From the NCBI RefSeq assembly GCF_963506605.1, contig NC_083284.1:124001-188000 (forward strand): DNA of 64,000 nucleotides, written 5' to 3'. Both the position numbers and the translations under genes were made by a program. The first letter of the stretch is position 1. Each line of letters opens with the position of its first letter. Source of the DNA: Zootoca vivipara (taxonomy: Eukaryota). The notes beneath the pieces are model-generated. The model searched no databases. It saw nothing but the letters and a program-made list of their open reading frames with translations, and had not been told where the DNA came from. Below are positions 21,601 to 61,130 of this stretch, piece by piece.

Positions 21601-22562
21601 ACCACCTGAAAGAGTCTCCTGCTGCTGTTTTCTGCAGATGCAATAGAGGCGGTGAAGAAAATCTTCTTCGCCGCCACTACCGCCACTTGGTAGGCTCGAC
21701 ACTGAGCTCTAACCCGTGTCCGGTCAGCTTCAGAATGAGTTATCCGCCATAACTGTATGGGCTGCCACGCGTGCGCAGTCCGTACAGAGTGCACACTCGC
21801 AGGATGTCACACATGCGCAGGCTGCACCCAGGTGCTGGAGCGGGTTCCTCCGCCACTGCTTCCCCCCACTAGAAACACAAGAATTGTAGGGCTGGAAGGG
21901 TCCTAGTCCACTCCCTCCAATGCAGGCATCCCAACTGAGAGGACCACCCAGCCTGTGGTCCGTTCTAAGTCTGGCCTCTTTCTCTCTCTCTTCCAGCTCA
22001 GACGAATTGTGTGGATGCAACCATTGCCAATCTCCTGGAGGGGCGGGTTCCCTTCATCCCCAGCGAGGCGGAGGCGGAGGATTCCTCGGCTGCCCCGTCC
22101 GTCTCTGGCGCTCACTACCTCGCCTCTGCTCCCCTGACCACGGTATCCAACACCCCCCACCCCAAGGAGGAGGGAGGGAGCAGGCGCTGGGTGGGCCCAT
22201 GGGGGGGGGCTGAAGAGGGCCGGGGCTTCTCAAGGCTGAGCTGCCCCCTCCTCCCTCTCTCTGCAGGCCCCCATGAAGCTCTTTGCCCGGTCCCCAGAGG
22301 CAAGGCACGTCTCCCTCCAGGAGCGGAAGCGGCTGCTGTACGACTACGCCAGGAGGTGAGGCCAGGACCCTTTCCCTGCCGCAGAGGGAGCAAGGGGTGG
22401 ACCCTCCCCAGCAGCAGTCTTTCTCACACACCCCACAGCCCGTCCGGGCTTGCTGTGGCTGAGCTGCTCTGCGCCTCCATGTGCTGATGAGAGGCTCCCT
22501 CTTGCCTTCACAGGAGATTCATGGAGAAGCATGGGATGGCGCAGAAGGAGGGGAGCCACTGA
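15660..22562 (+). CDS. AUP1: Ancient ubiquitous protein 1 (lipid droplet/ERAD factor; acyltransferase-like, CUE and G2BR domains), 11 coding exons, about 429 aa
   Basis: Exons: 15660-15721, 15823-16114, 18016-18203, 18351-18423, 18609-18682, 18889-18955, 19108-19216, 19436-19576, 21997-22142, 22267-22355, 22514-22562; total 1290 nt in frame. Motifs [15 protein letters not shown] hairpin, NHVTHFD, LLLFPE, CUE (VKEVLPHVP...TIANLLE), G2BR (RHVSLQERK...YARRRF). AATAAA at 22857-22862. Confidence 0.96.
16680..17015 (-). mobile_element. CR1 LINE 3' fragment
   Basis: Same CR1 ORF2 C-terminus and (ATTCTATG)n tail as the other copies. Confidence 0.9.
17020..17333 (-). mobile_element. Sauria SINE (partial, internally deleted)
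   Basis: High similarity to the copies at 6956-7324 and 43375-43682. Confidence 0.8.
19797..21760 (-). mobile_element. L2-clade LINE, 5'-truncated and degenerate, in AUP1 intron 8
   Basis: RT ORF 20588-21388 ([40 protein letters not shown]); 3' end GGGCGGGGTATAAAT followed by an A/T-rich microsatellite tail. Confidence 0.88.
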
Positions 22563-23308
22563 GCAGCTGGGGTTTTTCTTGAGGACTGCTGGCTTGATCA
22601 ACTCTGGATCTTGGTGGAGGGTTGCTGCGGGCACTGCCGCCCTGCTGGACCCATGTGGGGTTGGCGGTGTGTCGGTGGCTGCCCTTGAGCGGTGTGCACT
22701 CACCCTGCCTGACGTCTCCGCAGGGCAAGAGGGAGGCTCCCGGCCCCCACCCCGCCCGCTGCAAGGCCCGGACTCCACATCGCCCTGCCGCACAGCCGGG
22801 GCCACCGACGGCCTCCCTCAGAGTGCGGGTGGGAGGGGGCAAGCTTTCACTATCAAAATAAACGTTACTCTAATTCTCATCCTCTCGGACGCGCCTTCCT
22901 TCGCTGCTGTTGACTCCTGCTTGAGAGGCAGCAGAAGCCCCACCAAGGGAGACACGATGGGTCCTTGTTCCGCCACCGCCAGGTGTGGCCAGGCTGCCTT
23001 GCCTCTTGGGAGTGTGCTGCCTGGGTGCCCTCTGGCTCTGCCCTCTGTGCCCTGGCTCCGGAGGGGGTGGGCCCCTGAGCCAGTCAGCTGGCAAGCTGAG
23101 CTGTTCTTGCATTTGGGGACAGCTGTCACCTGCCTTGAGCCAGGCTCCTCCTGTCCTGACCCAGCCTGAGCCACACCAAGCTCCATTCCAAGTGCTTTTC
23201 GGTGGCTGGTTTTTGTGTCCTCGCCGTCTTGAGTCTCTGGTTTCTGTTTCTGTGTGGTGAGAGTCTGCTTTAGCTTTGCGTACTTCACAGTGAAGCAGGT
23301 GCTGAAGA

Positions 23309-23496
23309 CAGTGGTACCGCGGTTTATGAACACAATTGGTTCCGGAAGTCTGTTCATAAACTGAAGCATTCATAAACTGAAGCGAATTTTCCCATTGAAA
23401 GTAATGGAAAGTGAATTAATCCGTTCCAGATGGGTCGGCGGGGTTTGTAAACCGAAAATTCGTAAACCGAGGTGTTCATTAACCGAGGTTCCACTG
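23309..23496. mobile_element. Tc1/mariner (Tigger-like) MITE
   Basis: Imperfect TIRs CAGTGGTACCGCGGTT and AACCGAGGTTCCACTG; TA follows the right end. Related sequence at 32270-32563. Confidence 0.7.
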
Positions 23497-24697
23497 TAGT
23501 GGGGTTGGGGTGATAGTAGTGTGTGTGGGGGGGGGGTGATTCTTGCATTGTGAGGGGTGGACTAGATGACCCATGGGCTCCCTTCCAATGCCTGGCGGCC
23601 TTTTCTAGCCCCCAGCGGTGTGGTGTTCCTTTAGCGGAATGGCTGCTTCTTTCCTTTGGTCTCCTTGCTGTGGCAGCCTTGCATAGCTCTGCCCTGAGCA
23701 GGTGCCCCAAAGCTCCTTGGAAACAAAAGCAGTGGGGGCGCCTTTGGATCCTTGAGTGAGGGCTGCGGGGGGCCAGCCCTTCTGCTCCCCCAAGAAAAGA
23801 AAGCCCGGCCACCTGCATGCTATTTTCCCTGAGAGGGGGGTCCAATAGACTCCACCTGAGCCTTGAAAATCACCTAGGAGTTGAAAGGGGAGGGGTTGTC
23901 ACTGTCCAATTGGCTGCCTGTACTTTGGACAAAGGGAACCTTCCTGACCACCTGGAGAGGGCAGCGGTTCCTGGGGGGAACCGGGTTCCAGGGGGAGGTC
24001 TTAGGCGACCCTGAGGGGGAATGGGGGGGGGTACTCTCCACACCTTCCAGAATCCAGTGGCTGCGAGTGTGGCAGGAGGAACTCTGGATCCTTGGTGCCT
24101 CTATTCTGGGCATCCTTTGATGAGCGCTTCCTGCGTTGGGGGGGGGTCCCCCTTCCAGTTCTCTGAATCAGTGGGGCAGCCTAAATTTGTTCAGGTTCCC
24201 CCCCCCCCCCGCCCCGCAGTCCTGGGCAAATGAAGCTGCGAGGAGGAGAGGGGCGAGGAAGGCTGCCCGGGAGGCGGGGGCGCGCGGCGCGCTCCGGAGG
24301 ATACTGCTCCCCGTCCTCGGATCCCTTCTCCGCTCGCGGGGTCGGCCCAGGTCAGCCTCCTCCTCCCGGGCGGGAGATGCGTGCAGCTCGGCATGTCTGG
24401 CTGCGCCCCTCCCGGCCGCGCGTTCATTCATGGAGCACGTAGCCGGCTACTCTTAAAGGGGCAACGGGGGGTGGGGGGGCGAGTTGCCTTCCTCCAGCTC
24501 CCTCCTTCCGTGGCTTCGGCGGCGCCCCGCTCTTTGAAAGAAATAGAGCAGGACTAGGACTTCTCTTAGAAGAGCATTAGCCTTTTTTGCTGCTGCATCA
24601 CACTGGACTCACGTTAAGCTTGTGGTCCACCAAGACCCCGAGATCCCTTTCACAGGTACTTGCTAGTAAGTAAGCCAGGGGTCCCCCCCCCCGTCCT

Positions 24698-24895
24698 CAG
24701 GGCCGGATTTAGGTTGGATGAGGCCCTCAGCTACTGGAGGTAATGGGGTCCTTTATATGTCCAGCTGTATTTTGTCAACAACAAATGGTCGCTGTTTTTT
24801 GTGTTGAATACAGTATGTTATGTAGTAATTTTGGCGCCCCAAGAGAGTGGGGCCCTAAGCTATAGCTTGTTAGCTTATACGTCAATCCGGCACTG
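24698..24895. mobile_element. hAT-type MITE inserted into a CR1 fragment
   Basis: TIRs CAGGGCCGGATT and AATCCGGCACTG; 8-bp TSD CCCGTCCT/GCCGTCCT (7 of 8 match). CR1 ORF2 sequence continues on both sides. Confidence 0.7.
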
Positions 24896-25401
24896 GCCGT
24901 CCTAAATTTGTGCATCTGGTTCTTCCTGCCTCAGTGCAGAACCTAGCATTTGTCCCTATTGGAATTCATTTTCTGAGCTTGTGCCCAGTTCTCCAATCTG
25001 TTACGGTCATTTTGCATTCTGATTGTAACTCCACGGTGTGATGTTCAGAAAGCCTTCCCCTTAGAATCCCAGAATTGTAGAGATGGAAGGCACCCCAAGG
25101 GCCATCTAGTCCAACCCCTGGCAATGCAGGCACCACTGCAAAAGCTCTTCCTGTCGAAAGATAGAATTTCCTTCCTGATCCTTTGAATCCAATGGTTCGG
25201 GACGGGTTCTCCCTTCCGGAGCAGCTGGGAAAGGAGCCGGCTCCGTCCTCCATAGGGCAGCCCTTGCACATGGGACGGTGCCCCTTCCCCTGTCTCTTGC
25301 CGATTGGGGTCCCCACCCCTCCCAGGAGCAGGCTGGCGTCGCCCTTTTAAGGCGCGAGGGTGCCCGGCGCTTCTGTTTACAGAAGGCAGCCGGCTGGGCG
25401 T

Positions 25402-25407
25402 CACGTG
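25402..25407 (+). promoter_or_regulatory. CACGTG E-box / hypoxia-response-element core in the BNIP3-like promoter
   Basis: GTCACGTGG about 75 nt upstream of the ATG at 25482, in a CpG-rich region. Confidence 0.5.
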
Positions 25408-25481
25408 GCCTCCAGCTGGCCGGCTGGCTAATGGGACGGGCACCTGCCTGGCACCGGGAGGGAGCCCCAGGCAGCGGAGCG

Positions 25482-28157
25482 ATGGAGGCGCCCCGGGAAG
25501 ACGTCCTGCAGAGTGAGTGGCCCTGGGCGGGCGGAGGGGAGGAGAAGCGCGCTCCCGCGCCGGGTCCCTTGCGGGACCAGATTGCGGTAGGGGGGGATCC
25601 AGTTCGGTCCCTCTAACTGCCCCTCCCTCCCTGCCTGCCCACTTCCTAGGCTCCTGGGTGGAGGTGACCCCACTTGGCCAGGAGGAGCCCCCCACGCCGG
25701 CCTGTGCGCCCCACCGCGACATGGAACAGATTCTGCTGGAAGCGCAGCTGGAGGTGGAGTCGCCGCGGGCCGAGGGGTAGGTGGCTGGGGGCGGATGACT
25801 CTTTCGTGGGCAGCGGGGTCGGCGGAACTCCTTGCAACTGGCTGTGAGCGCAGCCGGGAAGCGACGGCACCGGGGTGGGGGGGGGCGGGCGGGCTGGAGA
25901 CCAAGCTTGGACTGCCGGGTCTCTCTGGTGAGGGGATGGCAGATCAGCCCCTCAGAGCCAGACAGGCGCTACTGGGCATCCCCGGCTCTTCGCCCTTTCC
26001 TTAACCCCTGCTCAGGGCTGCGTACCCAGGGGGCGGCCCACTGCCTGGCCTGGGGGGAGGCCAGCTCTTCCTTCCAAGTGCTCCCAAAGTCCTCCCGTGA
26101 ACCTGACTCTACTCCCCCCCACACACACTATGGGGCTGTACTGTGGCTTTTACTGGAGTTGGCATAACTGCGCTCCTAAGCAAATTCCAGTCAGCTCCTT
26201 TTAATGCTAATTGCCCAGATGTTCCCTCAGTACTTGCGGTTCTGTTCCGTTCCCTTGTTGGGATGCTCTGAAACGTCAGAGTTTGAACCAAATCGCTTCT
26301 CTTGAGATTTGTCTTTCTGAACTTTTCCCTGTGAAATTGGAAAGTTTGGCTGGTTTTCTTTGGGCTCCCCCTTGCCACATGAACCTGAGGAGGTGAACCC
26401 CACATCCTGCCATTATAAATGTACCAGAGCTGAAAGAATCGTGGAATCACAGAATTGTAGAGTTAGAAGGGACCTTCAAGGCCCATCTAGTCCAGCCCCC
26501 TGAAATGCAGGGATCTCAACAACATGACTGATAGCCATCCAACGTCTCCTTTAAAATCTCCAAGGAAGGAGACTCCACCACCTCCCTAGAGAGTCTCTTC
26601 CGCTGTCAAACAGCTCAGAAACTTCTTCCTGGTGTTTAGTCAGAAGGAGCCTTTGCTGTGTGGGGTCTGGTTTCTACAGCTGCTTCCCCAGAAACACCGG
26701 CCTGGGAGTGGCCACCAGACATCTTCCAGGGACACAAACCCCCCTGCAAGGATGACCTGGGCTTCTTCTGTGTGGTGACAACCTAGTGTCTTTCTCCTGC
26801 CTGAGGCTCCATTGGCCAACCACTTCACCTGCCCAGGAGGACAGGAGGCACCTGAGCATCTTCACAGGGTGTGGACAGGTCTTGCCTGGTAGAGATTTAG
26901 GTCCAGTGAGGGCATCAGCCTCTAAAGGGCTTCACAGCAGCTTCTGAGCATGCTCACAAACAGTATGGCAGTGAAATCTCTCTTGTGTTTCCAGCTCCTT
27001 CCTTGCACTGAAGGCACCTGGTGTGGAGGAGCTGAGCCCAGGGCAGGTGAGTGTCAATGCTGAGGTGTGCAAAGGACCCACCTGGGCCATGGGCTTGTGG
27101 GCTTGTAGCCTCACATTCAGAAGGCGCCAACCAAACTGGGGTCCTGAAAGGTTTAATCTCAGGGGTCTTTGTGGTGACCGGCCCACAAAGCACCTCGAGA
27201 TCCATAAACAGGTGTGTTCACACCCACCCACAAGACATTCCCAGATGGTTGCCCAGGTGATGTCCCCCTCCACCCTTAAAAATATTATGGGATGCTGGAC
27301 TTTCTCTTTGCAGAGGGAAGACGCTGAAGGGTCTGTCCAGCTGGGGACCCTGCCCTGGTCGTGGCCCAGCCCCCCTGAGCACCAAAAGTAAGGATGGCTC
27401 TTCACTGCCTTTCCATGGGGGTCCTTGCCCCCCCTGGGCAAGACTCTCACCCCACTGCTGCTCCACTTTGGACTCTGTCTCTCTGTCTCTCTGCAGGGAG
27501 CTGGCCTGTCTATCCCCTGCGTGTGCCCCCCTGCTCAGCCCAGTTCTACACAGGAGGAGGGGGTTGCGGGACCCCCAGCTGCTGCTTCTGGTCATCCCCT
27601 CTCTGCTGCTCAGCCACGTCTTGGCCTTGGGCCTTGGGTGAGTCGGGGGGGGGGAGAGAGAGAGGCAACGAACCAGGCAGAGTTAGCACCTCCAAACCTC
27701 TTCTCTCACACACAGCAGTGGCCCATCAGTTGAGGAGAAATGGGATCATGCCAAAAAAACATGGGGACGGGGGTTGATTTTTCTCTCCCTTTACAGAAAC
27801 ACCCTTAATTCTGCCCAATACTGCCTGTCTCCTACCCCCCTCCCCTCCAAAACACATTGAGACCTGCTGTGACGTCTCTGAGCTTAGGTTCCCCCCAGGC
27901 ACCTGGCTGGCCACTGCAAGAAGAGGATGCTGGATTCGATGGGTCTCCTCTGGCCTGATCCAGCAGCCTCTTTTCGTGTTCTTCTGCTGCTCAGAGCCTT
28001 CTGTTGTGGGTACCCTTGCCTCTCCCACTTTCCTGGAGGAGGGGAGCAAGAGAGGGGGCTGCTGGCCTTGCCTCTCCTGACCAAGCCCTTTCCCTCTCCT
28101 TTCTCCAGCATTTGTATCGGGAAGCGTCTGGCTGCCTCCCCAGCAAGCAGCCTGTGA
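25482..28157 (+). CDS. BNIP3/BNIP3L(NIX)-family mitophagy receptor paralogue, 6 exons, 157 aa
   Basis: Exons 25482-25512, 25650-25776, 26995-27046, 27314-27387, 27497-27637, 28109-28157 (474 nt, all GT-AG, intron phases 1,2,0,2,2). Product: MEAPREDVLQSSWVEVTPLGQEEPPTPACAPHRDMEQILLEAQLEVESPRAEGSFLALKAPGVEELSPGQREDAEGSVQLGTLPWSWPSPPEHQKELACLSPACAPLLSPVLHRRRGLRDPQLLLLVIPSLLLSHVLALGLGICIGKRLAASPASSL. An alternative in-frame ATG lies at 25431. AATAAA at 28610-28615. Confidence 0.9.
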
Positions 28158-31146: not shown

Positions 31147-32740
31147 TCACAGGAACCAGAAACACTTTCGCCGGGACTTCTTGGGCTCCGCTTTCACCAC
31201 GGCCAGATTCAGCGCTGGCGACGGCTCCTGGTGGTTCGGCGTGGCAGCTGGCCTAGCCCCCGGGGGGCTGTGGCTCGGCTCAGGCTCAATGGTGCTCAGC
31301 ACCTGCTGCAAACGCCCCTCCTGCTTCCGGAAATCATGTTCCACACTGTGGGGAGGCGGGGAGCAAGTCAGAGGGTGGCGTCTCCCAAGGAACCCCACTC
31401 AGCCAACGCTAGGAATTGGGGGCAGAGACGGAGGTCTGGCTGGACTGGGCTGCCCCCATCCCTCCTGGGGGGCCATGGGAGCTGGTGCAGAGGAAGCAGC
31501 TCAGCCGGCAGGAGCCTGGGGGGGGGCACCAATGGGAGCCTGCCTGCCTCTGCCGACCCTGGCATGTCTCACCCGTCGCTGCAGCGGTAGAGACAGACCC
31601 GTCAATCCCAATTAGCGCTGAGGCTTTGTGTGAGCCACACAGGCAGGAGGCCAGAAGGAGCCGGCGGGCAGGCAGGCAGGGTGGCGGGAAGAGGAAGAGG
31701 GCCCAGTCCTGCCAGGGAGGCTCTGCACAGCCAGCACCCCCCCCCCAACAGCCTCCAAAGGTCAATGGAAACGTAGGGCAGGAACCGAGAAAAAAGCCTC
31801 CAAGGAGCAGAGGCTGCCGGTCTCTCCTTCCTTGGAGGTTTTTAAGCAGAGGTTGGGAGGCCGTCTGCCAGGATGCTTGCGGGGGGGGGGGGGGCTGGTC
31901 TAGAGGACCCTCGGGGTCCCTTCCAACTCTACAAGTCTAGGATTCTATGGTCTGCGGAAGATGTCTTCCTTGTGCCAAACAGCCAGGGCTGAGAGCAAGA
32001 GCCCTCTAGGACTCGGATTCTAGGGAACCCAGAGCAGAGATACCCGCCTCTCCCTGGACCCCCTTTCACCATCCTGGCTCACAGCCCCCCATGGGGTATT
32101 GACTTCCTCTAACCCCTCCTTAACAAATTGTCCAGTAGCACCTTAGAGACCAACTAAGTTTGTTCTGGGTAGAAGCTTTCGTGTGCATGCACACTTCTTC
32201 AGACTTAGTTGGTCTCTAAGGTGCTACTGGACACTTTTTATTATCTATTTATTTATTCTGACTGCGTCTGTACTTAACCTGAAGCGAACGTTCCCATTGA
32301 AAGGAATGGAAAGTGGACTCATCCATTCCAGATGGTCTCCGGAGGACTCGACCTGAAGTGTACTTAACCTGAAGTATGAGTGTAATTGGTTCTGGAAGTC
32401 CGTACTTAACCTGAAGCGTACTTAACCTGAAGCGTACTTAACCTGAAGCGAACTTTCCCATTGAAAGTAATGGAAAGTGGATTAATCCATTCCAGACGGG
32501 TCCACAGAGTACTTAAACTGAAAGTACACAAACCGAAGTGTACTTAAACCGAGGTATGACTGTGGAATGCCCTCCCATCAGATGTCAAAGAGAATAACAA
32601 CTACCAGTCTTTCTAGAAGACATCTGAAGGCAGCCCTGTTTAGGGAAGCTTTTAATGTTTAATAAATTATTGTATTTTAATACTTCTGTTGGAAGCTGCC
32701 CAGAGTGGCTGGGGAAACCCAGCCAGATGTGGGCGGGGTA

Positions 32741-32777: not shown

Positions 32778-35700
32778 AATATCTAAGAAGGACTCAGAGG
32801 CAGCCTCTGGTATTTAGAAGCAGAATGTAGCGAAAGGGGCTGGTAGCCATTTGCAACTGTCAGCTCCATGGGTCTGGGCCCTGTGGGGCTGCCCCAGCCT
32901 GGCAGGCATTTCCCTGGGATATGGTACAAGCTCACCACAGGCCCTGCAGAGTCTGCTCCTGCCCCATCGCACCCCCATCAAAATCCACTGCCCCTACAGT
33001 GCCAGGGAGCCCAAGGGATCAGGCCAAGAGCTCACCTCGTCCAGCCTCCTGTTCTCACAGTGACCAACCAGATGCCTGTGGGAAGCCTGCAAGCAGGATC
33101 CGAACACAAGAGCAGCCCTCCCCCCTCCTGCGGTTTCCAGCAAGTGACCTTCCGAAGCCTTGCCCCCTCCAACTCTTGAGCCATTCCTGGCTAGGCCAAA
33201 ACAGAGGCCCAAGCAGGGAAGGGGCTCTGTTGCAGAAGAGGGTGACCTGGGCGAGAGAAAAATCGGCTGGGCAGGGAGAAAAGTGGGCCTGCCAGAGATC
33301 CAGCAGGACTGGAAAGGACTGGAAAGCAGCCAAAAGACAACGGAGTTGGGTGGGCTTAGCCTGAAAGTGGGTTGGGGGGGGGAGATGCTGGCCCTTTAGG
33401 GAGGGCAGGGCCGGCTCTAGGTAGAGTCCCGGTGGCGCGGTGCGCCAGGGCGCCGGGCCGGTAGGTGGGGCGCTGCGTGGCAAAGCCGCGCGGAAACCAT
33501 GCTGCGCCCTGCGAGGGCGGGGGTGCCGGAGCGATCTCCGCCGCTCAGCGCCAGGGCGCCCGACCTGCTCGAGAATGCCCTGAGGGAGGGGATCCTCTTC
33601 ACCCCAGACCACATTCTGAACCGGGCCAACGATACAGACCTCCTCTCTCTCCTGAGCCCCCTCTGCCCTCGCTCAGCAGAAAGCGCAGGATCATCACCTC
33701 CATAATACTGAACAGGCTTACATTTTATGTTGATGTGAAATGTGAATGTCAGCAGCCTAGGTCTGGGCTGCAGGTGGATGCCGTGGCCGGCAGCCGAGAG
33801 CAGAGGAGGTGGGGAAGCCAGGGGGGCCTGGTGGGACTGGGCACCCCCAAACCCCACCCCACCCCTGCTCCGAGGCCCCTCCTACCTGTAGATGATGCAA
33901 GCGCTGTTCCGGCAGGTCCCGCAGTTGGTGGTGTCCTGCCCTGTCCGGTAGGACTGCCGCCTGAAACAGAGCAGGATGAGCCCATGAGCCGAAGGTCCCG
34001 GAGGGCACAAGCAGGCAGCCATGCCCCAAGGGCCGGGGGGAGCTGGCTTTGGGGGCCAGGAGAACCCCAGGAGGTCTTAGGAAGGGAAGCCAAGGCAGGC
34101 AGGCAGAAAAGGAGCCCCTCCAGCCTCCCAGCACAGAGGCTGCCCCAAGGCAAGGGGGCTGGCCCCACAGTGGCACTGCTTTGGCTTCCAAAGTGGGCAG
34201 GCACAGTGCTCCATCATTTCAAGCACAGTCAAACCAAAATGTCGTCTTTTGCTGGACAGGCAGCCGAGAGCAGCTGACGCTCACAGCATTTTCCTTTGTG
34301 TTTGCTGGAGAGAACTCTGCGAGAGCCAGTCCCATGGTGCCCTGATGGGCAGAGGGCACAGCCATAGATCTTTTCTCCTTGCCTGCCTGGGCACATGCTC
34401 TCATTTTTGTCTCTTCACCCCCAAGCCAGAAATAGGAGAACATCTGCGAAGTGTCTGAGCTCCAATGTTCAGACACCCTTTTAAGCTCAACTTAAGTACG
34501 CCTCTCAAATTAGCTCATTTGGTTGGAGCCTGGTGCGGAAAACAAAGGTCACAGGTTCGATCCCCGTATGGGATGGCTGCATATTCCTCCATTGCAGAGG
34601 GCTGGGCTAGATGACCCTCAGGGTCCCTAGAGGCCCTGCAAATTTTGTCTCTGTAACTGAATTACCATTTTAAGCCCCCTGAATAAAGCTGTTATTCTGC
34701 CGCAGAAACCCTGAGTGAATAGATGTTGTTTTTAATCTCTTACAAGACTGTTTGTATGATTATTGTTTTCAAAGGGGGAGAAAAGGGGGAAATATCAGGA
34801 GAATCCAATCTGCCTTAAAACATCCTAGATTACTTAAACAGAAAGGCTAAAACTAGCCCATCGAAGGTCCTTTTTAAGCCACAAAAGGGATATCACTCTG
34901 CAGAAGTAAGGAGAATATCTAATAAATATAGGCTCTCCTAGCATCTCTTCGACATCCCTGGCTTCCAAGGGTCAAGGTGGCTCAAGGCCTGGCCGGTGGG
35001 CTCCTTGGGGAACCCAGAACCCACCCAGCCCAAGACCCGCCTCACCCATCGCGCTGGGCCTCCTTCTTCTCCAGATCCTGAATGACATCGAGTAGCACCT
35101 TGATGGTTTGTTGGCTGGTCTCCAGCACCCCCTCGAGGGACTGCAGCTGGGAGTGGATCTCACCCACCCGCCTGGGGAGGTCCTGAGATGCTGGCGGGGG
35201 CTCCCTCTCTGCAGCAGCGGGACACGGTGGCCCTTCAGCCACAGACACCAGCTGCAGGTGGTGGTCCTGGACGCAGGGAAACGTCCCCCCAGGTTGGGCA
35301 GAGAGGCAGGCCTCAGGGGGGCAGCTGCTCCTAGAGGAGGGCAGAAGGGGGTCCGGGGGCTTCTGGGAAGGCGTGGGGGCTGTGGGGTGGGCCTGAGTGG
35401 TGCTGAGGCTCTCCGGGGAGGCCCCGGGCGCTGCTGGTTTTGCTGACTTGGGGGGCCCTGCTGCAGGAAGCAGGCAGGCAGGGGTGGGGTCTTGGGTGGG
35501 GGGGCCCTGAGAAAGGGGGTTGGGGGAAGGGGTGCTCCTCTGGGGGGCACAGGGAGGGGCTCTAGAGGCCTGCTCAGAGGGAGTTTGACAGAGAGGGAGT
35601 TGGCACAGCCAGGGGGCGCCAGAGCTGCCGAGGGGTTGCATGGAGGAGGGGGCACAGTGCTTGCGCTGGGAAGAGCAGCTGGCCAAGAGGCACGGCTCCC

Positions 35701-36238
35701 CCCACCCCGGGTATGGGGGGCATGATCCTCGGGGAGGTGGCAGCCCGGGGCACAGGGTGGCAGGAAGCCTGGGGCGCTGCTGGGTGTGGGGTGAGGCAAG
35801 GGAGCAACCAAGGGCAGGAAGGCTGGCGGTGCCCCCCGGGGGTGGATCCTGGTTGCGGCCCACTGCAGAGGGTGCCCCCTCCTGGGCGAGGTCGCAGGAG
35901 CTCTTGCTGCGGAGGGGCCGCTGCAGGCTGGGCGACGTCTGGCTGGCGGTGCTGATGCCAGTCGCCCCATGGGGATCCGGCAGGGCAAGCAGCAGGCGGG
36001 GCCCGGATTGGGGCCAGCTCCGCCTGGCGCAGTTGGCGGCAGAGGCCCGCGGGGTGGGGCTGCCCAGGGGCTTCTCTCCGCCCTCCTCCAGGTCCTTGAA
36101 GCGCACCTGCCGGGCACGGTGGCGGCGCTGCAGGCGATCCTCAGCACCCGGCGAGTCACGCTTGAGCAGCACGGAGCGGACCCCGGCGGCGGCAGCCTTC
36201 TCTTGGCCGGCCTCCAGGGCTGCCCCCTGGCTGGCCAT
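31147..36238 (-). CDS. INSYN2/FAM196-family (inhibitory synaptic factor 2-like) protein, 3 coding exons, about 488 aa
   Basis: Exons (minus): 35046-36238 (acceptor upstream at 36667-36668), 33886-33960, 31147-31345; total 1467 nt in frame. Family motifs: VRSVLLKRDS, RQVRFKD, STASQT, coiled coil [52 protein letters not shown], C-terminal KKSRRKCFWFL. Confidence 0.9.
32129..32233. mobile_element. Penelope-like-element terminal fragment forming an inverted repeat
   Basis: 31-bp arms 32129-32159 and 32203-32233 around a spacer containing AGCTTTCGTGTGCATGCACACTTCTTCAG; same family as 59004-59235. Confidence 0.7.
32270..32563. mobile_element. Tigger-like MITE remnant with internal 16-bp tandem repeats
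   Basis: CGTACTTAACCTGAAG x3 at 32401-32448; TIR-like end AAACCGAGGTATGACTG; similar to 23309-23496. Confidence 0.65.
33406..33582. mobile_element. GC-rich hAT-type MITE, copy 2 (intron of the INSYN2-like gene)
   Basis: Highly similar to 30336-30505; perfect 8-bp TSD AGGGAGGG at 33398-33405 and 33583-33590. Confidence 0.8.
34511..34630 (+). mobile_element. tRNA-derived SINE with CR1-type tail
   Basis: A-box-like TAGCTCATTTGG and B-box GGTTCGATCCC, followed by a TTGCAGAGGGCTGGGCTAGATGACC CR1-like 3' tail. Confidence 0.6.
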
Positions 36239-40711: not shown

Positions 40712-41549
40712 CCAAGGAGAGCTTCCAAGGAGACGAAGCAGTGGGCTTCCAGTAAAGGCCAGCCGGATGGGCTGGGTGCTCCATTGTGAGGGTGCCCATC
40801 CTTGGGGAGAAAGAAGCCCCTCTTGCAGGAAAAGAGATTCCAACGAAACCTTGGGAAGAACTTTCTGCCAGTACAAACGGAAAATACTCTTTCAGAAGGT
40901 GGGGGGGGGCTCTCCTTCCTTGGAGGCTTCTAAGCAGGCGTTTGGGGGTCACATCAAGGGGGTTGGACTAGATGACCCTTGCGGCCCCCTCCAACTCTAC
41001 GATTCTAAGTCAAGCCAGTGCCAAGAGAGAGCACCAGCCCGGCCATGCCTCAGGCTCTCACCTGGCCCTCAGGATCACACACAGAAGCAGAGATGCGGCT
41101 CAGAGTCCAGAGGGCGGGGGGGGGGGGAGAGAGCCAGGGTCCCAGCTGCAAAGAAGAAAGGAGTGGCAAGCCCAGAAGAAGGGGTCCCTGGCTTCCCCAC
41201 ATCCAATATCCCCTGAAGGGCAACGAAATAGCAGCACTTTCGTGGCAGGTGCCTTTCTCAGGGCAGCATGAAGCCTGGGGGGCTGGAGCCTGCGCCCCCA
41301 AAGCACCCCCCACAATGAAGGTGGTCTTTAAGCCCCTGCATTGTTCCCTGCTCCCTTGGCCCGCTGGCAAGGGACGGGGGGGGAGGCGGGGGTCAGACAT
41401 GTATTACGGTAGGGCCTCCCTCCAATAATCCCCAGAACCCCCCTTAAAACCCAGGCGGAGCCAGCCCCCGGACCTCAGGACTTTTGCCCGCAGCCTAAAC
41501 TTTAAGACACCGGATAAAACCATCCTCACCGCCAGCCCCCCCCCCCTCC

Positions 41550-42700
41550 CGCCAAGGGAGTTGCGGACGTGAAAGCGGCGCGTCTCAGAAGTTCCCCGGA
41601 ACACCGCAGGCGCCTCGGAGAAAACTTTTCACCCCACGACAGATCACCCTTTGCGCCTTACTGTCTCTTTCAGATGGTTTTTTTGGGGGGTTGGGGCAAA
41701 ATAACCCTCCCACAGGCGCCACAGACTAGCCCCCACCCGCTTACAAGGGCTCCCCAAAGGCTTCCACCGCCCCCCGTTCCGCTTGCGCGCCCAGCCGCGC
41801 CGCGATCCAGAAAGGCGTTCGTTCGCAGCATCCGCCCGGCCGAGGTAGCAGCCCCTGCTTCGTAGCGGGGTGTGTGTGTGTGAGGGTGTGGAGTAACCAA
41901 GCCAAGCCGAGGCTTGGTCCACCTAGCTCAGCCTTCTCGACACGGGCTGGCAGCAGCGGCTCTCTTCCGGGGAAGCCAGGCCGGCGAAGCCATTCGCGGG
42001 CGAGCCTTCTGCATGCCAAGCAGCTGCTCTGGCGCGGAAGAGGGGCTGCCGACCTTCCCGCAGAGCTGCCTCCCCCCCCCACCCATGGCAGCCATAAAAA
42101 AGACCTCTGCCAATCTGCGCGCCCTGCCATCCCGAGCCGAAGGCGACGGCTGCTCAGGATGCCCTCCGTCCCCGCTGCGCGCTCCTTGCCTGCCTGCTCG
42201 CTCGCTCGCTCGCCCACCAGCCCGGCGCCGGCGAGAGGGTCCTACGCCGCCGAAGCGCTCGGCCGAGAGAGGCGGAGCCGGGGCGGGCGGGCGGGCGGCG
42301 TCGCGCCTTCCCGGGAGAGCGACCGGCGCTCCGCCGCCGCCGCCGCCTCCCTGGGCGGGGCTTCGCCTCGGCGGGCGGCCCGGCCACGTGCGCGACCCCG
42401 AGCGGAGCCCCAGCAGCTGCACGTCGCGCGCGGGGATCCTCCTCTCTCTGCCTCCCGGCTTGGCCCTGGCTTGGGAGCCGCGCGAAGAAGACGCCTCCGA
42501 GCATGTGCAGAGGGCGTGGCGGCCCCTCTCCTCTGGGCTTAGCCGGTGGGGCTTCCTGGCAGGATTGGCCCTCTTAGGGGGGGCTGGGATTTGCTGCAGC
42601 TCCTGGGCCCTGAGGCTCACGGGCCTGAGCCGACTAAGCCCCGCTGCCCCTCGGGGCTGCCCCGATCCTAAGGTCCGGGGGCTTTTTTGTAAGGCCCTTT
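41550..42700. promoter_or_regulatory. CpG island, probable promoter / non-coding first exon of the INSYN2-like gene
   Basis: Dense CpG with no recognisable protein, about 5 kb upstream (minus-strand sense) of the acceptor at 36667. Candidate minus-strand donor ACAG|GTAAGG at about 41661. Confidence 0.55.
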
Positions 42701-45814: not shown

Positions 45815-48222
45815 TAGAATCATAGAGTTGGAAGAGACCCCAAGGGCCATCCAGTCCAACCCCCTGCCAAGCAGGAAACACCATCAAAGCATTCCTGACA
45901 GATGGCAGCAAGTTTCACTGTCGAACAGCTCTTACTGTCAGGAAGTTCTTCGTAATGTTTAGGTGGACTCTTCTTTCTTGTAGCTTGAATCCATTGTTCC
46001 GTGTCCACTTCTCTGGAGCAGCAGAAAACAACCTTTCACCCTCTTCTATACAACATCCTTTTATATATTTGAACATGGCTATCATATCACCCCTTAACCT
46101 TCTCTTCTCCAGGCTAAACATACCCAGCTCCCTAAGCCGTTCCTCATAAGGCATTGTTTCCAGGCCTTTGACCATTTTGGTTGCCCTCTTCTGGACACGT
46201 TCCAGCTTGTCAATAGCCTTCTTGAACTGTGGTGCCCAGAACTGGACACAGTACTCCAGGTGAGGTCTGACCAGAGCAGAATACAGTGGTACTATTACTT
46301 CCCTAGATCTAGATGCTATTGATGCAGCCCAGAATTGCATTGGCTTTTTTAGCTGCTGCATCACACTGTTGACTCATGTCAAGTTTGTGGTCTACCAAGA
46401 CTCCGAGATCCTTTTCACATGTACTGCTCTCAAGCCAGGTGTCTCCCATCCTGTATTTGTGCCTTTCATTTTTTTTGTCCAAGTGTAGTACTTTACATTT
46501 CTCCCTGTTAAAATTCATCTTGTTTGCTTTGGCCCAGTTGTCTAATCTGTTAAGGTCATTTTGAAGTGTGATCCTTTCCTCTGGGGTATTAGCCACCCCT
46601 CCCAATTTGGTGTCATCTGCAAACTTGCTCAGGATGCCCTCAAGCCCATCATCCAAGTTCTTGATAAAGATGTTGAATAAGACTGGGCCCAAGACAGAAC
46701 CCTGTGGCACCCCATTAATCACTTCTCTCCATGATGAAGAGGAGCCATTGATGAGCACCCTTTGGGGTCGGTCAGTCAGCCAGTTACAAATCCACTGAAT
46801 GGTAGCATTGTCTAGCCCACATTTTACTAGCTTCTTTACAAGAATATCATGGGGCACCTTGTCAAAGGCCTTGCTGAAATCAAGATATGCTACATCCACA
46901 GCGTTCCCTTCATCTACCAGGCTTGTAATTCTGTCAAAAAATGAGATCAGATTAGTCTGACATGACTTATTTTTCAGAAACCCATGCTGACTTTTAGTGA
47001 TCACAGAGTTTCTTTCTAGGTGCTCACAGACCGTTTGCTTAATGATCTGCTCTAGAATCTTTCCTGGTATTGATGTCAGGCTGACTGGGCGGTAATTGTT
47101 TGGGTCCTCTCTTTCCCCCTTTTTGAAAATAGGGACAACATTTGCCCTCCTCCAGTATGCTGGGACTTCGCCTGTTCTCCAGGAATTTTCAAAGATTATT
47201 GCCAGTGGTTCTGAAATCACCTCTGCCAGTTCTTTTAATACCCTTTGATGTAGTTCATCTGGCCCTGGAGACTTGAATACATCTAAACTAGCCAAGTATT
47301 CTTGTACTACCTCCTTACTTATTCTGGGCTGTGTTTCCCCTGCTGAATCATCTGCTCCATATTCTTCAGGTCGGGCATTGTTTTCTTTTTTGGAGAAGAC
47401 TGAGGCAAAGAAGGCATTGAGGAGTTCTGCCCTTTCTCTGTCCCCTGTTTGCATTTCACCATCTTCTCCTCTAAGTGACCCCACTGTTTCCTTGTTCTTC
47501 CTTTTGCTTCGGACATACCCATAAAAGCCCTTTTTGTTGCTTTTAACCTCTCTGGCAAGCCTGAGTTCATTCTGTGCTTTAGCTTTTCTGACTTTGACTC
47601 TACACGTGCTGGCTATATGTTTGAATTCCTCTCTGGTGATTTCCCCCCTTTTCCATTTTTTGTACATATCCCTTTTAAATCTTAACTCAGTTAAAAGTTA
47701 TTTAGATAGCCACGCTGGCTTCTTTAGGCACCTTCCATGTTTCCGTCTCATTGGTATTGCCTGAAGTTGTGCTTTTAATATCTCCCTTTTAACAAACTCC
47801 CAACCATCATGAACTCCCTTCCCTTTTAGTATTACTGTCCATGGGATCTCACCCAGCGTTTCCCTAAGTTTTCTGAAGTCAGCTTTCTTAAAGTCTAGAA
47901 TTTGAGTCTTAGTATGCTTGGTTGCTCCTTTCCGCTGAATAATAAACTCCAGAAGAGCATGGTCACTCCCACCTAATGATCCTGCCACTTCTACCCCACT
48001 AACCAGGTCATCACTATTGGTTAGGACCAGATCTAAAATGGCTGATCCTCTTGTTGCTTCTCCCACTTTCTGGGCAATGAAATTGTCTGCAAGGCCAGTG
48101 AGGAATCTGTTCAACCTTATGCTCTTGGCTGAGTTTGACATCCAACAAATATCAGGATAGTTGAAACCCCCTATTACTACCATCTCACCTCCTTTTGAAT
48201 GCCTGTTCATCTGTTCCAGGAA
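45815..48222 (-). mobile_element. CR1 LINE, about 2.4 kb, 5'-truncated, ORF2 disrupted
   Basis: Endonuclease C-terminal part (FNYPDICW, ILDLVLT, SDH), RT ORF 46309-47667 (NYRPVSLTS, QHGF, YLDFSKAFD, GVPQGS, FADD), stop at 47698, frameshift near 46310, CR1 tail. Confidence 0.93.
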
Positions 48223-48703
48223 GTATGCATTTAAAAACTATGGATCCTAAAGGCACCACAGTCTCTGCTGTTCCTCATTCCAAGGAAACCAAACCCCCTA
48301 GGTAAGCGCCTGGAACCCCTCGAATCTCTCACCACTCGGAGATTGGGGTGGCGTGCAACAATCTTCACTGGTGACGGTTCAGGTGGTTACCTAAATCAGC
48401 TTTGACTTTGCTGTGGGCTCTGCAGGTGGAGGCAGAGAGAAGGATGAGGAACTCAGGGGCGACTTGATGGAAGTTGACGGATCTCCTGATAGCTAATCCA
48501 GTCCCACGCCTTCCAAGAAGGTTGCCTTGCCTTGCCTCACCCTAGAAGGTCAGTCACCCTGCCTGCCTGCCTGCCCTCTTCGTCTTCAGCAGGCAGGCAG
48601 CTGGGCTCACCCTGCCCATCCCTGGGTCCACCCGCCCTGGCCTGCTGAATCATCTGCTCCATATTCTTCAGGTCGGGCATTGTTTTCTTTTTTGGAGAAG
48701 ACT

Positions 48704-49827: not shown

Positions 49828-52227
49828 TTTTATTTATACCCCGCCCTCCCCAGTCAAAAACTGGGCTCAGGGCGGCTGACACCAACAGAATTACAATAAA
49901 ACATAAGAACAATTAATTAAAATACAGTATTAAAATTTAAAGTGCAGCCTCATTTCAAGTAGTCCATAAATCCAAGCCATGAGGGAGGAAAACACAGGGG
50001 TCAGGATGAGTCTAACCCAAAGGCCAGGCGGAACAGCTCTGTCTTGCAGGCCCTGCGGAAAGATGACAAATCCCTCAGGGCCCTGGTCTCCTGGGAAAGA
50101 GCGTTCCACCAGGTTGGGGCCAGTACTGAAAAGGCCCTGGCTCTAGTAGAGGCCAATCTAGCCATCTTATGACTCGGGATCTCCAGAATATTGTTGTTTG
50201 TGGACCTTAAGGTCCTCTGCGGGGCATACCAGGAGAGGCGGTCCTGTAGCTACGAGGGTCCCAAGTCGCATAGCAACTGGGAACTCCTCCTTGGAGCTGC
50301 CAGCCCTCAGTTGCCCTTTTCTTTGCAATGCCCTGGCAGTGCCGAGCGCCCATGATGCCCAGCCCCTGTGCTGCATCTGGCCATGGCCTCACAGAAGTGA
50401 TAGGAATGGCAGCGGCTTCCACAGGCACAAGAATTCCCGGTGTGGAAAGAGTGGGCAGAGGAAAGGCTTTTCTCCCTTTCTCGTAACACCAGAATTTGGG
50501 GGCGTCCCAAATTCTAGTGCTGAACGTTGGGAGATTTGAGACAAACAAACGGAAGAACTTCTTCACGCAGCGCGTAGCTGAACTGCGGAACTCCCTCCCA
50601 CAGGAGGCAGTGACAGCCCCCAACCCCAATGACCTGAAAAGAGGATTAAGGCAAATCCATGGGGGCTACTATCCACAACAGCTACGCTCTGCTTCCAGTT
50701 TCTGGGGGTCTTGGGGGGGCTCAGGTCCCCCTTGTGCACTTCCCTCTGGCTGGCCACTGTGAGGAGGACCAGAACCCTTTGACCTGATCCTGCTGCTGTT
50801 AGGCTCCTCCTGTGTCCTTGATTTGCACGTAAATCCTGTTTGGCTCTCTGCTTCCGTTCCTGGGGCTGCAGCAAGTTCACCTGAATCGGAGTCCTGCGCC
50901 TGCCAGAACGGATGTTTCCAGCTGGCTGAGCTCGCCACATCAGTCCCCAGAAAATACTCCTGCGCTTCTGGCTGGCTGAACCTCACGGCTGGTCTGGTGA
51001 GGAGGTGGGCCTGTGTCCTCCTGGCCTGGAGGGCTCTGCAGGCTGCTTTTGCCCTGCTGGGGTGGGAGACAGGAGCAGAGCCCATGGGCCCATGGCTTCC
51101 TTCTAGGCCCCCTGGGGGCTCCCTCTCCCTCTCCAGGAGGTGGTTGTGAGCTCAGCTCCCCTCTTGGACTTGGGCATGCCAATCCTGGCTGGCTGGCGAA
51201 TTGAAAGAGTGCAACCTGGAGCAGGCAGGGACCCCAGCACACATAATACCAGGGAAGGCGGCAGGGGGCACTGACCCCGGTGCCCTCTGGCTGCATGCCA
51301 GCCATCGGCAAGGGCTGGGCTATTGCCTCTGCAGCCGCACTCCTGCCATGCTCATGGGGATTGATTTCTATTCCTTCCTTGTTCAGCAGGATGGGGGTGG
51401 GTGGCACTGGCTGGGTCCTTGGCCCACTTTCCTCGCCCGCGGGTGTCCTTGGCTGGCATCCAGACTGGCCTCCCCTTCGCAGAGCTGCAGCTGCAGGAGG
51501 TGGGGCAGCCAAGCCCACCAGCCCAGGCTCCTCCCTGCAGAAGCAGAATGTGTGGGCCTGCAAGGAACTGGACCTGCAAGAGGCCTGATCCTGCATCTCT
51601 GGCTCCCCTTTTCTTTCCCCTGCACAGTCCCTGAACCTTTTCTGTTGGGGGGCAGCCAGGCAGCCTCTCTTCAAGCCTCTCTTGCCTGCTACCTGACCCC
51701 CTTCCCAGCCCCAACAGCCCCCTCCCATTCATCTTCTTCATTGCCTCCTGATGGAGCCCCACCTTGGGCAAAATATTCCTGCATTTTGGGGGGGGTTGGA
51801 CTAGATGACCCTTGAGGCCCCTTCCAGCTCCATGATTCTGTGACCATCTAACTGGAAGCCTAGCCTTCTCCAGGAGGAGGGCTGGCTGCAGGCCTGCAGG
51901 AAAGGCTTTGGGGGTCTCTGGGAAGGTCCATCCTTTAGCTCTTGCCTTGTCAGCTCTCCCACCCAAACGCCACCCCATCCTCTCTGTCCCCTAAGAGATC
52001 TCTCTCCCTCTCAGCCCAAACTATTTGTTCAGAGAGCGAGATGGGGAAGGACTCTGAATATGGCACTGAATATTCCCGCCTCTTCCCGCTCCCTCTGGGC
52101 CTTTACTCTGCTTGCCTCACTCATCACTGACTCAGCCTTGCCCTCCAGCCTTATTGGGGGGCAGGAGAAAATCTCTCTGCCATGAATATCTCAAGTCTCC
52201 TGCACCACCACCATGCTTTCCTCAGGG

Positions 52228-54686: not shown

Positions 54687-54734
<48 letters not shown>

Positions 54735-55101: not shown

Positions 55102-55151
<50 letters not shown>

Positions 55152-55249: not shown

Positions 55250-55287
<38 letters not shown>

Positions 55288-59560: not shown

Positions 59561-59599
59561 TTGTGTTTTTATCTTAAAAAGGGCTTAGAGGGCTCCTCC

Positions 59600-60300
59600 T
59601 TGCGCGCCCCGGGAAAGGCTGCAGCGAAGGGGCGCAGAGTCCGGCCTTGCGCGCCCCAAGGTCTCCAGCAGCAGGAAAGGGGCGCCAAGACCCACCTCCG
59701 GGGAGGGGGCGGGAGAAGAGCGCCAGGCGGAGCGGGGGAGTCGGCCCCGCCCCGCCAGGTGTGCATGACGTCACAGGAGGCGGGGAGGAGACCGGAAGTG
59801 CCGCTCGGCTCCGCCCCCCCCAGCTGGAGAGCCAGCCGTCTAGTCCGGCGGCCATTGGCCGCTCGCGGTCACGCGGCTGCGCCCCCTCCCCCTCCCCTCC
59901 TCCCTCCTCCCACTCCGTCGCCTGCGCGGCGCAGGTGAGACAGGTGAGGCCCGGCGGGGGGGGGAGGGGGGTCCGGGAGGCGCCCCTCTCCGTCCCCGAT
60001 CCGGGCCGGGCGTCGGGGGCGCAGCAGCGGCTTGGCCGTGGCTCTGCCCGTCGGCGGGAGGGCGGGAGGCGCCGCCGGGATCGGGGCCCCCGCCGGGATC
60101 GGGGCCCCCACCCTCCCGCCTGGGGCAACAGCGGCCAGGCGCTCTCGGCGCCGCCCCGGGGCTCCCTGCGGCCGGGGTGGGTGGGGGTAGGGTCTCCCCG
60201 GTTGCCGGTCTCTGCGGAGCCACCGCCCCCCCCCCCGGCCAGCCAGCCTGCCTGACGTGTCTGGGCGAGGATGCCGCCCTGCTGCTGCTGCGTTGCCCCG
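59600..60300 (+). promoter_or_regulatory. DQX1 CpG-island promoter and probable non-coding exon 1
   Basis: TGACGTCA CRE (59766-59773), ACCGGAAGTG ETS/GABP site (59791-59800), inverted CCAAT; tandem donors GCAG|GTGAGA (59934) and ACAG|GTGAGG (59943). Confidence 0.7.
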
Positions 60301-60812
60301 TGAGCTGGCTGCTTGGCACCGGGCAGCGGCAGCCTCGGCTCCGCCCGGCCCTCCCCAGGCTCCCTGGGCTTGGACATGGGGGGGGCGATTGCTTCCTTGC
60401 AGCAGGTTGGGCTAGATGACCCTTGGGGGTCCCTCCCAACTCCACCATTCTATGAGAGAAGGTTGTGGGCACAGAGCACAGGGGACCCGCTTGCCTAATG
60501 CCCCTAGCTTCTCTCTCTCTCTGACCCACATCCAGCGCCGGCGGGGGAGCTGAGCCGTTTCAGCTGCTCTCCCTTGGGGTCTGGAGGAGGGCAGGGAGCA
60601 TCTTGGCCCACCTGGAGCCATGGATCCCCCTTTGCACCTGGTCTGACATTTGGGCAGATCCAGGAGATCAGAGCCCAAAGCCCTTTGTCCCTGAGGCAGA
60701 AACCCTGCGGCATCCCGTGATCTGGCATTCAGAGTCCCTTGGGTGGGCTTCCCCCCCTTCCTTCCCTCTCCCCTCTGCAGGTTTCCTGGGAGACCCCGAG
60801 GGCTGGACTGCC

Positions 60813-61130
60813 ATGGCAGCGGCTGCAGCAGCAGAGGACCCCCCTGGCCCCTTGGATCAGTCGGATGGGCTGAGCTCCCTCCTGGATGAGGAAGAGGACG
60901 AAGATGAAGACGGCGACAGCCACACGGAAGGCCTGTCTGGGAGCTGTGAGGGCGACCTGGAGGTGAATCCGTACGACGGGCTGCCCTTCTCCTCCCGCTA
61001 CTATGAGCTGCTGCGCCAGCGCCGCCACCTCCCCATCTGGGGCTCCAAGTTCCCCTTCCTGGAGCACCTGGAGGGCGGAAGCAGCATCGTCGTGGTGTCT
61101 GGGGAGCCGGGGGCCGGCAAGAGCACCCAG
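60813..61130 (+). CDS. DQX1: DEAQ-box RNA-dependent ATPase 1, first coding exon; gene continues beyond the window
   Basis: Acceptor at 60780, GCCATGG Kozak, [25 protein letters not shown] and Walker [11 protein letters not shown], donor GTGAGT at 61131. Synteny with AUP1/HTRA2/LOXL3 favours DQX1 over DHX32. Confidence 0.9.

What the first reader, a model, noticed from the sequence alone, without database searches (positions are those of the whole stretch)
22562..60813. AUP1-DQX1 interval preserves a two-gene paralogon block absent from the human locus
Seen: the order LOXL3(+) HTRA2(-) AUP1(+) [BNIP3-like(+) INSYN2-like(-)] DQX1(+). Established: human has the same outer order with AUP1 and DQX1 adjacent. 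Human 10q carries BNIP3, INSYN2A, DHX32 (the DQX1 paralogue) and LOXL4; 8p21 carries BNIP3L and LOXL2; 5q35 carries INSYN2B. Inference: both extra genes fit the 2p13/8p/10q/5q paralogon, so they are more likely retained 2R ohnologues than recent duplicates, perhaps removed together in the mammalian lineage.
Basis: partly seen in the sequence, partly recalled or inferred. Interest (0 to 1): 0.72.

Follow-up and report, generated by a model that had tools for sequence, protein, structure and literature searches.

The report
Lizard keeps ohnologues that mammals lost
Between AUP1 and DQX1 this lizard carries two intact genes missing from the human locus, a third BNIP3/NIX-type gene and a third INSYN2 gene, likely leftovers of the early vertebrate genome duplications; the INSYN2 gene probably once sat inside a DOCK gene that this lizard has lost.

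Summary
Observation confirmed. A six-exon BNIP3-family gene (157 aa, + strand, spliced in an RNA contig) and a three-exon INSYN2/FAM196 gene (488 aa, - strand) lie between AUP1 and DQX1. The genome has its own BNIP3, BNIP3L, INSYN2A and INSYN2B elsewhere, so these are third paralogues. The INSYN2 gene falls in a shark-to-bird clade, sister to INSYN2B; none of 103 named hits is a mammal. The BNIP gene is most likely BNIP3L2 (fish bnip4), published as fish/coelacanth-only; this rests on motifs and synteny, not on a tree. INSYN2A and INSYN2B are nested in the same intron of DOCK1 and DOCK2, and no DOCK trace remains here. So the nested gene likely outlived its host, and loss looks piecemeal (birds keep DOCK2L, lizards BNIP3L2); joint loss in mammals is untested. 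All six squamate BNIP3L2 proteins lack the SRPE arginine that NIX needs for PPTC7/FBXL4 turnover. A new member of a known kind, with one testable twist.

The parts
2107..7830 (+). LOXL3, 3' part (approximate bounds; context gene)
   Evidence: SRCR and lysyl-oxidase exon hits; end read
10170..15462 (-). HTRA2 (approximate 3' bound; context gene)
15661..22562 (+). AUP1 coding span; left boundary of the interval
25388..25423 (+). Promoter stretch of the BNIP gene with an E-box (GTCACGTGG, 25400-25408); likely conserved with an agamid lizard
   Evidence: function untested
25482..25512 (+). BNIP3L2-like coding exon 1 (ATG)
25650..25776 (+). BNIP3L2-like exon 2: LIR-like WVEV (aa 13-16) and the essential NIX-type motif DMEQILLEAQLE (aa 34-45)
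26995..27046 (+). BNIP3L2-like exon 3
   Evidence: a 49-base unlisted piece of the spliced contig fits it
27314..27387 (+). BNIP3L2-like exon 4: WPSPPE (aa 87-92) in place of WSSRPE
27497..27637 (+). BNIP3L2-like exon 5: transmembrane anchor with SHxxAxxxG
28109..28157 (+). BNIP3L2-like exon 6 (coding part, stop); 3' UTR follows, AATAAA-type signal at 28610
31147..31345 (-). Third INSYN2 gene ('INSYN2C'), last coding exon, ends KCFWFL
33886..33960 (-). INSYN2C middle coding exon (cysteine motif)
35046..36238 (-). INSYN2C large first coding exon (ATG 36238)
41500..42500 (.). CpG island, probably the INSYN2C promoter (untested)
45918..48237 (-). LINE fragment (endonuclease and reverse transcriptase); filler where no DOCK exon is found
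60813..64000 (+). DQX1 from its ATG; continues past the window; CpG island at 59.5-60.5 kb

Best explanation
Two intact genes lie between AUP1 and DQX1, and they are likely the surviving parts of a three-gene stretch left by the two early vertebrate genome duplications: BNIP3L2, a fourth DOCK-A gene (DOCK2L), and a third INSYN2 gene probably born nested antisense in a DOCK2L intron. Shown here: both genes are intact third paralogues; the INSYN2 gene belongs to a clade that spans jawed vertebrates; INSYN2A and INSYN2B sit antisense in the same intron of DOCK1 and DOCK2; no DOCK sequence is detectable at this locus. Inferred: this lizard lineage lost the DOCK2L host around its passenger (about 0.85); the BNIP gene is the orthologue of fish BNIP3L2/bnip4 (about 0.85); birds kept DOCK2L and INSYN2C but seem to lack BNIP3L2; therian mammals lost all three. 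Predicted function: the BNIP protein is a tail-anchored, dimerising outer-mitochondrial mitophagy receptor like BNIP3/NIX (about 0.75), possibly freed from PPTC7/FBXL4 turnover (about 0.4); INSYN2C is probably a largely disordered inhibitory-synapse protein like its paralogues (about 0.5).
For: Own BNIP3 (C5) and BNIP3L (C15), INSYN2A (C5) and INSYN2B (C2) lie elsewhere. All 5 intron phases match BNIP3 and BNIP3L (1,2,0,2,2), so no retrocopy. 37-38% identity to both, which are 62% alike; at sites where they differ it matches BNIP3 8 times and BNIP3L 9 times. A 708-base contig is spliced over exons 2, 4, 5, 6. Orthologues in 5 iguanians, 49-74% identical; the pair has consecutive locus tags in Phrynocephalus and adjacent or near accession numbers in two Anolis, Sceloporus and Pogona. 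Shared by eye with fish BNIP3L2: LLEAQ[LV]E, no lysine at the FLKV site, GKRLA, final Leu. INSYN2 trees: three clades each with cartilaginous fish, window gene in the third (97; 98/97), sister to INSYN2B (91/89), as the published ((A,B),(C,D)) pattern predicts; grouping with the lizard's own INSYN2B is rejected (p-AU 2e-72). PMC8040251 Table S1: DOCK2L and BNIP3L2 in the same quadrant as LOXL3/TLX2/DOK1; DOCK2L at zebra finch chr4 2.409 Mb between TLX2 2.391 and LOXL3 2.459, chicken 90.840 next to LOXL3 90.808, gar LG2 0.241 beside BNIP3L2 0.351; both blank in opossum and human. Nesting in DOCK1/DOCK2. Five DOCK-A/B loci, none on C9; DOCK exon queries give 54 hits in 214 kb against 57 in the reversed control, best E 0.04.
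Against: Its anchor reads HVLAL exactly as NIX, where fish and coelacanth BNIP3L2 have a Thr; in 6 of 6 squamates NIX-only matches exceed BNIP3-only matches, by 1 to 5. EAQ and KRLA also occur in an unlabelled divergent sequence of the same file, so they may be ancestral. In gar, BNIP3L2 and DOCK2L are on LG2 but LOXL3, TLX2 and DOK1 on LG4, so the AUP1-DQX1 setting is not shown for fish. The table gives no AUP1 or DQX1 position, so DOCK2L may lie on the other side of DQX1 in birds, and nesting of INSYN2C in DOCK2L was not seen in any species. The AU test did not reject grouping with INSYN2A (p 0.088, though 266 log units worse), and that tree carries a long-branch warning at the root. INSYN2C's large exon had zero depth in 4 of 4 runs laid, and BNIP exon bins mostly under 0.5 in the three raw RNA runs (6% of each read).
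Confidence: 0.8

Rival explanations
1. The INSYN2 gene is an old ohnologue, but the BNIP gene is a squamate-specific, fast-evolving duplicate of BNIP3L (NIX) that landed beside it.
For: Only squamate orthologues retrieved; NIX-identical HVLAL segment and a small excess of NIX-only matches; BNIP3L2 listed for no tetrapod in two surveys.
Against: All introns kept, so it needs a DNA-level jump between chromosomes that happens to land next to the DOCK2L site, which in gar neighbours BNIP3L2; near-equal distance to BNIP3 and BNIP3L; BNIP3L2-type motif and C-terminus. Anolis is not in the BNIP3 sheet of one survey and no squamate is among the seven species of the other.
Confidence: 0.12
2. One reading: a two-gene block kept whole in reptiles and cut out in one deletion in the mammalian ancestor.
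For: Both genes (and DOCK2L) are unlisted or not found for opossum and human; the therian interval is very short.
Against: Birds have DOCK2L and INSYN2C but no listed BNIP3L2, this lizard the reverse for DOCK2L and BNIP3L2, so the stretch decays gene by gene. A single mammalian deletion stays possible but would have removed up to three genes.
Confidence: 0.3
3. One or both genes are decaying relics with no current function.
For: Low or no RNA depth in the runs laid; divergent, proline-rich middles.
Against: Open frames, canonical splice sites, a spliced contig, motif-centred conservation across lacertids and iguanians, and across jawed vertebrates for INSYN2C.
Confidence: 0.05

Closest known systems
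BNIP3L2 / zebrafish bnip4 (PMC5526904; PMC8040251 Table S1)
   Same: Third BNIP3-family lineage, same paralogon quadrant as LOXL3, short N-terminus, LLEAQ-type motif, GKRLA tail ending in Leu
   Different: Published for ray-finned fish and coelacanth only; fish copies keep SRPE, squamate copies do not; shorter (157 against 181-187 aa); anchor has Ala where fish have Thr
BNIP3 and BNIP3L/NIX mitophagy receptors
   Same: Six coding exons with the same five intron phases, LIR-like motif with upstream Ser, essential central motif, SHxxAxxxG anchor matching PDB 2J5D/2KA1
   Different: 37-38% identity; Ser-rich linker and much of the BH3-like stretch are missing; WVEV for WVEL; SRPE arginine lost; Tyr to Cys in the anchor
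INSYN2A and INSYN2B (FAM196A/B)
   Same: FAM196 domain, three coding exons with phase-2 introns, QVRFKD, coiled segment, cysteine motif and FW-rich C-terminus
   Different: A separate clade; no DOCK host in this lizard; not found in mammals; RefSeq calls it 'INSYN2B' or '-like'
Nested ohnologues that lost their host gene: TIMP2 (no synapsin host) and LRRTM4 (no alpha-catenin host); both recalled, from no call
   Same: A passenger gene kept after the host copy disappeared
   Different: Here the host survives in birds and gar, so the loss is recent enough to be dated

Membership tests
BNIP3 family (PF06553) | Pfam BNIP3 domain over the cut-off | tested here: met
   Orthologues P0253 (50 bits) and P0259 (37 bits) pass 26 bits; the window's single exons score 15-16 bits; the joined window protein was not scanned
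BNIP3 family (PF06553) | Six coding exons, intron phases 1,2,0,2,2 | tested here: met
BNIP3 family (PF06553) | LIR (WVEL) and the MEKILLDAQHE-type motif with its central Leu | tested here: met
   WVEV and DMEQILLEAQLE; motif definitions from PMC5526904 section 14
BNIP3 family (PF06553) | C-terminal anchor with SHxxAxxxG | tested here: met
   hydropathy 2.4 over aa 123-141; match to 2J5D, E 5e-7, by the Pogona orthologue
BNIP3 family (PF06553) | SRPE motif for PPTC7 binding | tested here: not met
   Arg absent in 6 of 6 squamate proteins, Trp two places before kept
BNIP3 family (PF06553) | Mitochondrial targeting and mitophagy activity | not testable with these tools
   needs cells
BNIP3L2/bnip4 orthologue group | Groups with fish and coelacanth BNIP3L2 in a tree | not tested
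   those proteins were seen only as text in a supplement; compared by eye
BNIP3L2/bnip4 orthologue group | Lies in paralogon 14 quadrant A, linked to DOCK2L | tested here: inconclusive
   Same quadrant as LOXL3; link to DOCK2L is indirect because DOCK2L is absent here
FAM196/INSYN2 (PF15265) | Pfam FAM196 over the cut-off | tested here: met
   60, 45 and 40 bits for the three exons
INSYN2B orthologue (RefSeq label) | Groups with INSYN2B and is nested in DOCK2 | tested here: not met
   true INSYN2B is on C2 inside DOCK2; p-AU 2e-72 against grouping
2R ohnologue | Duplication older than the shark/bony-fish split and paralogous chromosomal setting | tested here: met
   Met for INSYN2C (one stingray has both B and C); setting met, age not shown for the BNIP gene

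The most novel reading that the evidence does not exclude
Squamates keep a third amniote mitophagy receptor, the 'fish-only' BNIP3L2, which has shed the SRPE arginine and so escapes the PPTC7-FBXL4 brake that holds BNIP3 and NIX down; beside it a third INSYN2 gene has outlived the DOCK gene in whose intron it was born.
Probability: 0.35. Interest if true: 0.72.

Novelty: new member of a known kind. Interest (0 to 1): 0.5.

Why it matters
It would extend BNIP3L2 from fish to amniotes against a published range, add a third INSYN2 subfamily that databases mislabel as INSYN2B or INSYN2A, and warn that 'BNIP3' and 'INSYN2B' in several lizard annotations are not the human orthologues. It offers a natural variant of the PPTC7-binding motif, which bears on how mitophagy receptors are kept low, and a datable case of a nested gene surviving its host.

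Tried and rejected
Retrocopy or moved BNIP3/BNIP3L: rejected. INSYN2B or INSYN2A orthologue: rejected by position and trees. DOCK relic in C9 74-288 kb: none above the reversed control (an old decayed relic could be missed; 200 N in one flank). More genes in 39-58 kb: none by Pfam. The profile search for distant BNIP relatives was swamped by low-complexity words and returned 5 iguanian proteins. The Atlas named only BNIP3-family clusters and gave no useful fold. PF06920 was too weak for DOCK-A genes. No RNA holder on record was listed; reads could be laid only on 22.4-38.5 kb, so the 5' end of INSYN2C and the 41.5 kb island stay open. Five look-ups of earlier scan findings returned nothing. 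PMC2656488, PMC8805411, PMC6135963 and 10.64898/2026.06.25.734517 (passages) added nothing on these genes. No structure or complex was predicted: the proteins are mostly disordered and no lizard PPTC7 was held.
Full report
Source. The window is C9:124,001-188,000 of a 1.44-Gb genome. Its INSYN2-like exon is 99% identical to a protein named for Zootoca vivipara, and C9 has the same length, 78,328,957 bases, as the contig of that species' record, so it is a lacertid lizard.

Observation. The BNIP3-like gene has six coding exons (25482-28157), five GT-AG introns and a 157-aa open frame; the INSYN2-like gene has three (36238-31147, minus strand) and 488 aa. In one of four runs laid, a 708-base contig lies in pieces on exons 2, 4, 5 and 6 of the BNIP gene, with an unlisted 49 bases that fit exon 3, so it is transcribed and spliced as modelled; depth in the three raw RNA runs is low, and the large INSYN2 exon had no depth in any of the four. 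Pfam on 150 of the 327 longer open frames of the interval, those of 39.4-58.2 kb, found only LINE domains and noise.

Third paralogues. Family searches of the genome found BNIP3 on C5 (61.07 Mb) and BNIP3L on C15 (41.45 Mb), INSYN2A on C5 (58.0 Mb) and INSYN2B on C2 (77.6 Mb) (names assigned by sequence). LOXL genes lie on C5, C15 and C9, JAKMIP genes on C5, C2 and C9, and the closest DQX1 relative on C5 at 57.4 Mb (58%; called DHX32 from recalled human synteny). The order BNIP - INSYN2 - DEAH helicase is the same on C5, over 3.6 Mb, and here, over 36 kb, though INSYN2 is inverted relative to its neighbours.

INSYN2. The homologue search gave 114 proteins, 103 with names: lizards, birds, turtles, a salamander, ray-finned and cartilaginous fish, no mammal (7,995 candidates scored). 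A profile search listed 150 of 224 hits; of 20 sent for names, axolotl, caecilian and lungfish belong to the same group, lampreys fall outside it, and marsupial and rodent INSYN2A/B appear, so mammals are reachable by this search. Fifty unnamed proteins were nearest to bird, turtle, fish, shark, ray or INSYN2B sequences; one, 50% like turtles, is unplaced. A 42-row quick tree and a 21-row careful tree (rows chosen by me to span the taxa) give three clades, each with a cartilaginous fish; the window gene is in the third (97; 98/97), which follows species order and is sister to INSYN2B (91/89, with a long-branch warning at the root). Holding it with the lizard's INSYN2B is rejected (p-AU 2e-72); holding it with INSYN2A costs 266 log units but gave p 0.088. 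The duplication predates the shark/bony-fish split.

BNIP. Two searches found orthologues in five iguanian species only (the second was capped). They are 49-74% identical to the window protein, which is 37% and 38% identical to BNIP3 and BNIP3L; those two are 62% alike, and all three share intron phases 1,2,0,2,2. The two extra genes have consecutive locus tags in Phrynocephalus and adjacent or near accession numbers in Anolis carolinensis, A. sagrei, Sceloporus and Pogona, so the pair likely predates the lacertid-iguanian split. PMC5526904 (passages, section 14, parts of two supplements; its DOC supplement with gene positions was unreadable) describes a third lineage, BNIP3L2, 'only present' in ray-finned fish and coelacanth; Anolis is not in its BNIP3 sheet. 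By eye, the gar, zebrafish, medaka and fugu proteins share with the lizard LLEAQ[LV]E (BNIP3/NIX: LLDAQHE), no lysine at the FLKV site, GKRLA and a final Leu. Against: the lizard's HVLAL equals NIX, NIX-only matches exceed BNIP3-only matches by 1 to 5 in all six squamates, and no tree with the fish proteins was built.

The missing third gene. PMC8040251 (passages, section 8, supplement rows; the file is cut) places [BNIP3L2] and a fourth DOCK-A gene, [DOCK2L], in paralogon 14 quadrant A with LOXL3, TLX2 and DOK1. DOCK2L is at zebra finch chr4 2.409 Mb (TLX2 2.391, LOXL3 2.459), chicken chr4 90.840 (LOXL3 90.808) and gar LG2 0.241, 110 kb from gar BNIP3L2; BNIP3L2 is listed for gar alone of seven species; both are blank for opossum and human. 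Gar LOXL3, TLX2 and DOK1 are on LG4, so the wider setting differs there. In this lizard INSYN2A lies antisense between DOCK1 exons at 57.968 and 58.064 Mb, and INSYN2B antisense between the matching DOCK2 exons at 77.646 and 77.560 Mb. Since DOCK1 and DOCK2 parted at the first duplication in the published ((A,B),(C,D)) pattern, nesting is older, and the quadrant-A INSYN2 would have been born inside DOCK2L as sister of INSYN2B, which the tree shows. Two DOCK family searches found five loci and none on C9, and 39 exon pairs from DOCK2/DOCK5 plus 21 DOCK1 pieces gave no hit above a reversed control in 214 kb around the window. The host is gone; the passenger stays. TIMP2 and LRRTM4 are recalled as older cases of this kind.

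How it likely works. The BNIP protein keeps an LIR-like WVEV with the Ser before it, the central motif needed for NIX activity and the dimerising anchor of solved BNIP3 structures, so it is predicted to be an outer-mitochondrial mitophagy receptor. In NIX, Trp144 and RPE147-149 are needed to bind PPTC7, and their loss stabilises NIX and raises mitophagy (10.1101/2024.02.23.581814, passages). Lizard BNIP3 and BNIP3L and the five fish and coelacanth BNIP3L2 proteins seen keep SRPE; 6 of 6 squamate third copies have lost the Arg (SPPE, SAPE, SVP, GPPE). Escape from PPTC7/FBXL4 is a prediction, not a result. For INSYN2C the only guide is that InSyn2 is enriched at inhibitory synapses, with little functional work (PMC10913824, passages).

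What is known. The paralogon, FAM196A/B with DOCK1/2/5 as its markers, BNIP3L2 and DOCK2L are in print. Ten literature searches showed no paper on a tetrapod BNIP3L2, a third INSYN2 or this interval; the library lacks most subscription journals, and supplements I could not see (PMC2446394 file S1, PMC5526904 DOC, bioRxiv files) may bear on this. RefSeq already models these genes under misleading names.

Verdict. Real, intact, most likely 2R ohnologues lost in therian mammals; better described as two survivors of a three-gene stretch than as a two-gene block. New member of a known kind; interest 0.5.

Noticed in passing
window 25388-25423: The promoter stretch around an E-box (GTCACGTGG) reads SRLGVTWPPAGR in a frame other than the gene's; the same 12 letters stand in the predicted N-terminal extension of the Phrynocephalus protein P0115, which suggests a conserved DNA element (E-box/CLEAR/HRE-like; labels recalled) rather than protein.
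   Followed up: partly
P0267, P0024, P0259, P0116: RefSeq names the third paralogues 'INSYN2B protein' (Zootoca, Anolis) and 'BNIP3' (Anolis, Pogona); these labels are likely wrong orthology calls.
   Followed up: yes
window 41500-42500: CpG island with no coding frame of a known family, 5-6 kb upstream of the INSYN2C ATG; probably its promoter.
   Followed up: partly
window 50700-51800: GC-rich stretch with several long open frames and no Pfam match; no reads were laid there.
   Followed up: partly
L021-L030 (C9 188-288 kb): A PCGF1-like RING exon appears near C9 275.9 kb, but no TLX2 or LBX2 homeobox motif was seen in the 100 kb past DQX1; there is a 200-base N gap in L026.
   Followed up: no
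window 20591-21412 and 45918-48237: LINE reverse-transcriptase fragments, one inside an AUP1 intron.
   Followed up: no
G000 C6:7.97 Mb, C11:17.6 Mb, C14:9.9 Mb: Three LOX/LOXL1-type loci besides LOXL2/3/4; humans have two (recalled), so one may be another ohnologue lost in mammals.
   Followed up: no
P0134, P0136, P0165, P0195: A divergent second INSYN2C-type copy in some teleosts, probably from the teleost duplication.
   Followed up: no
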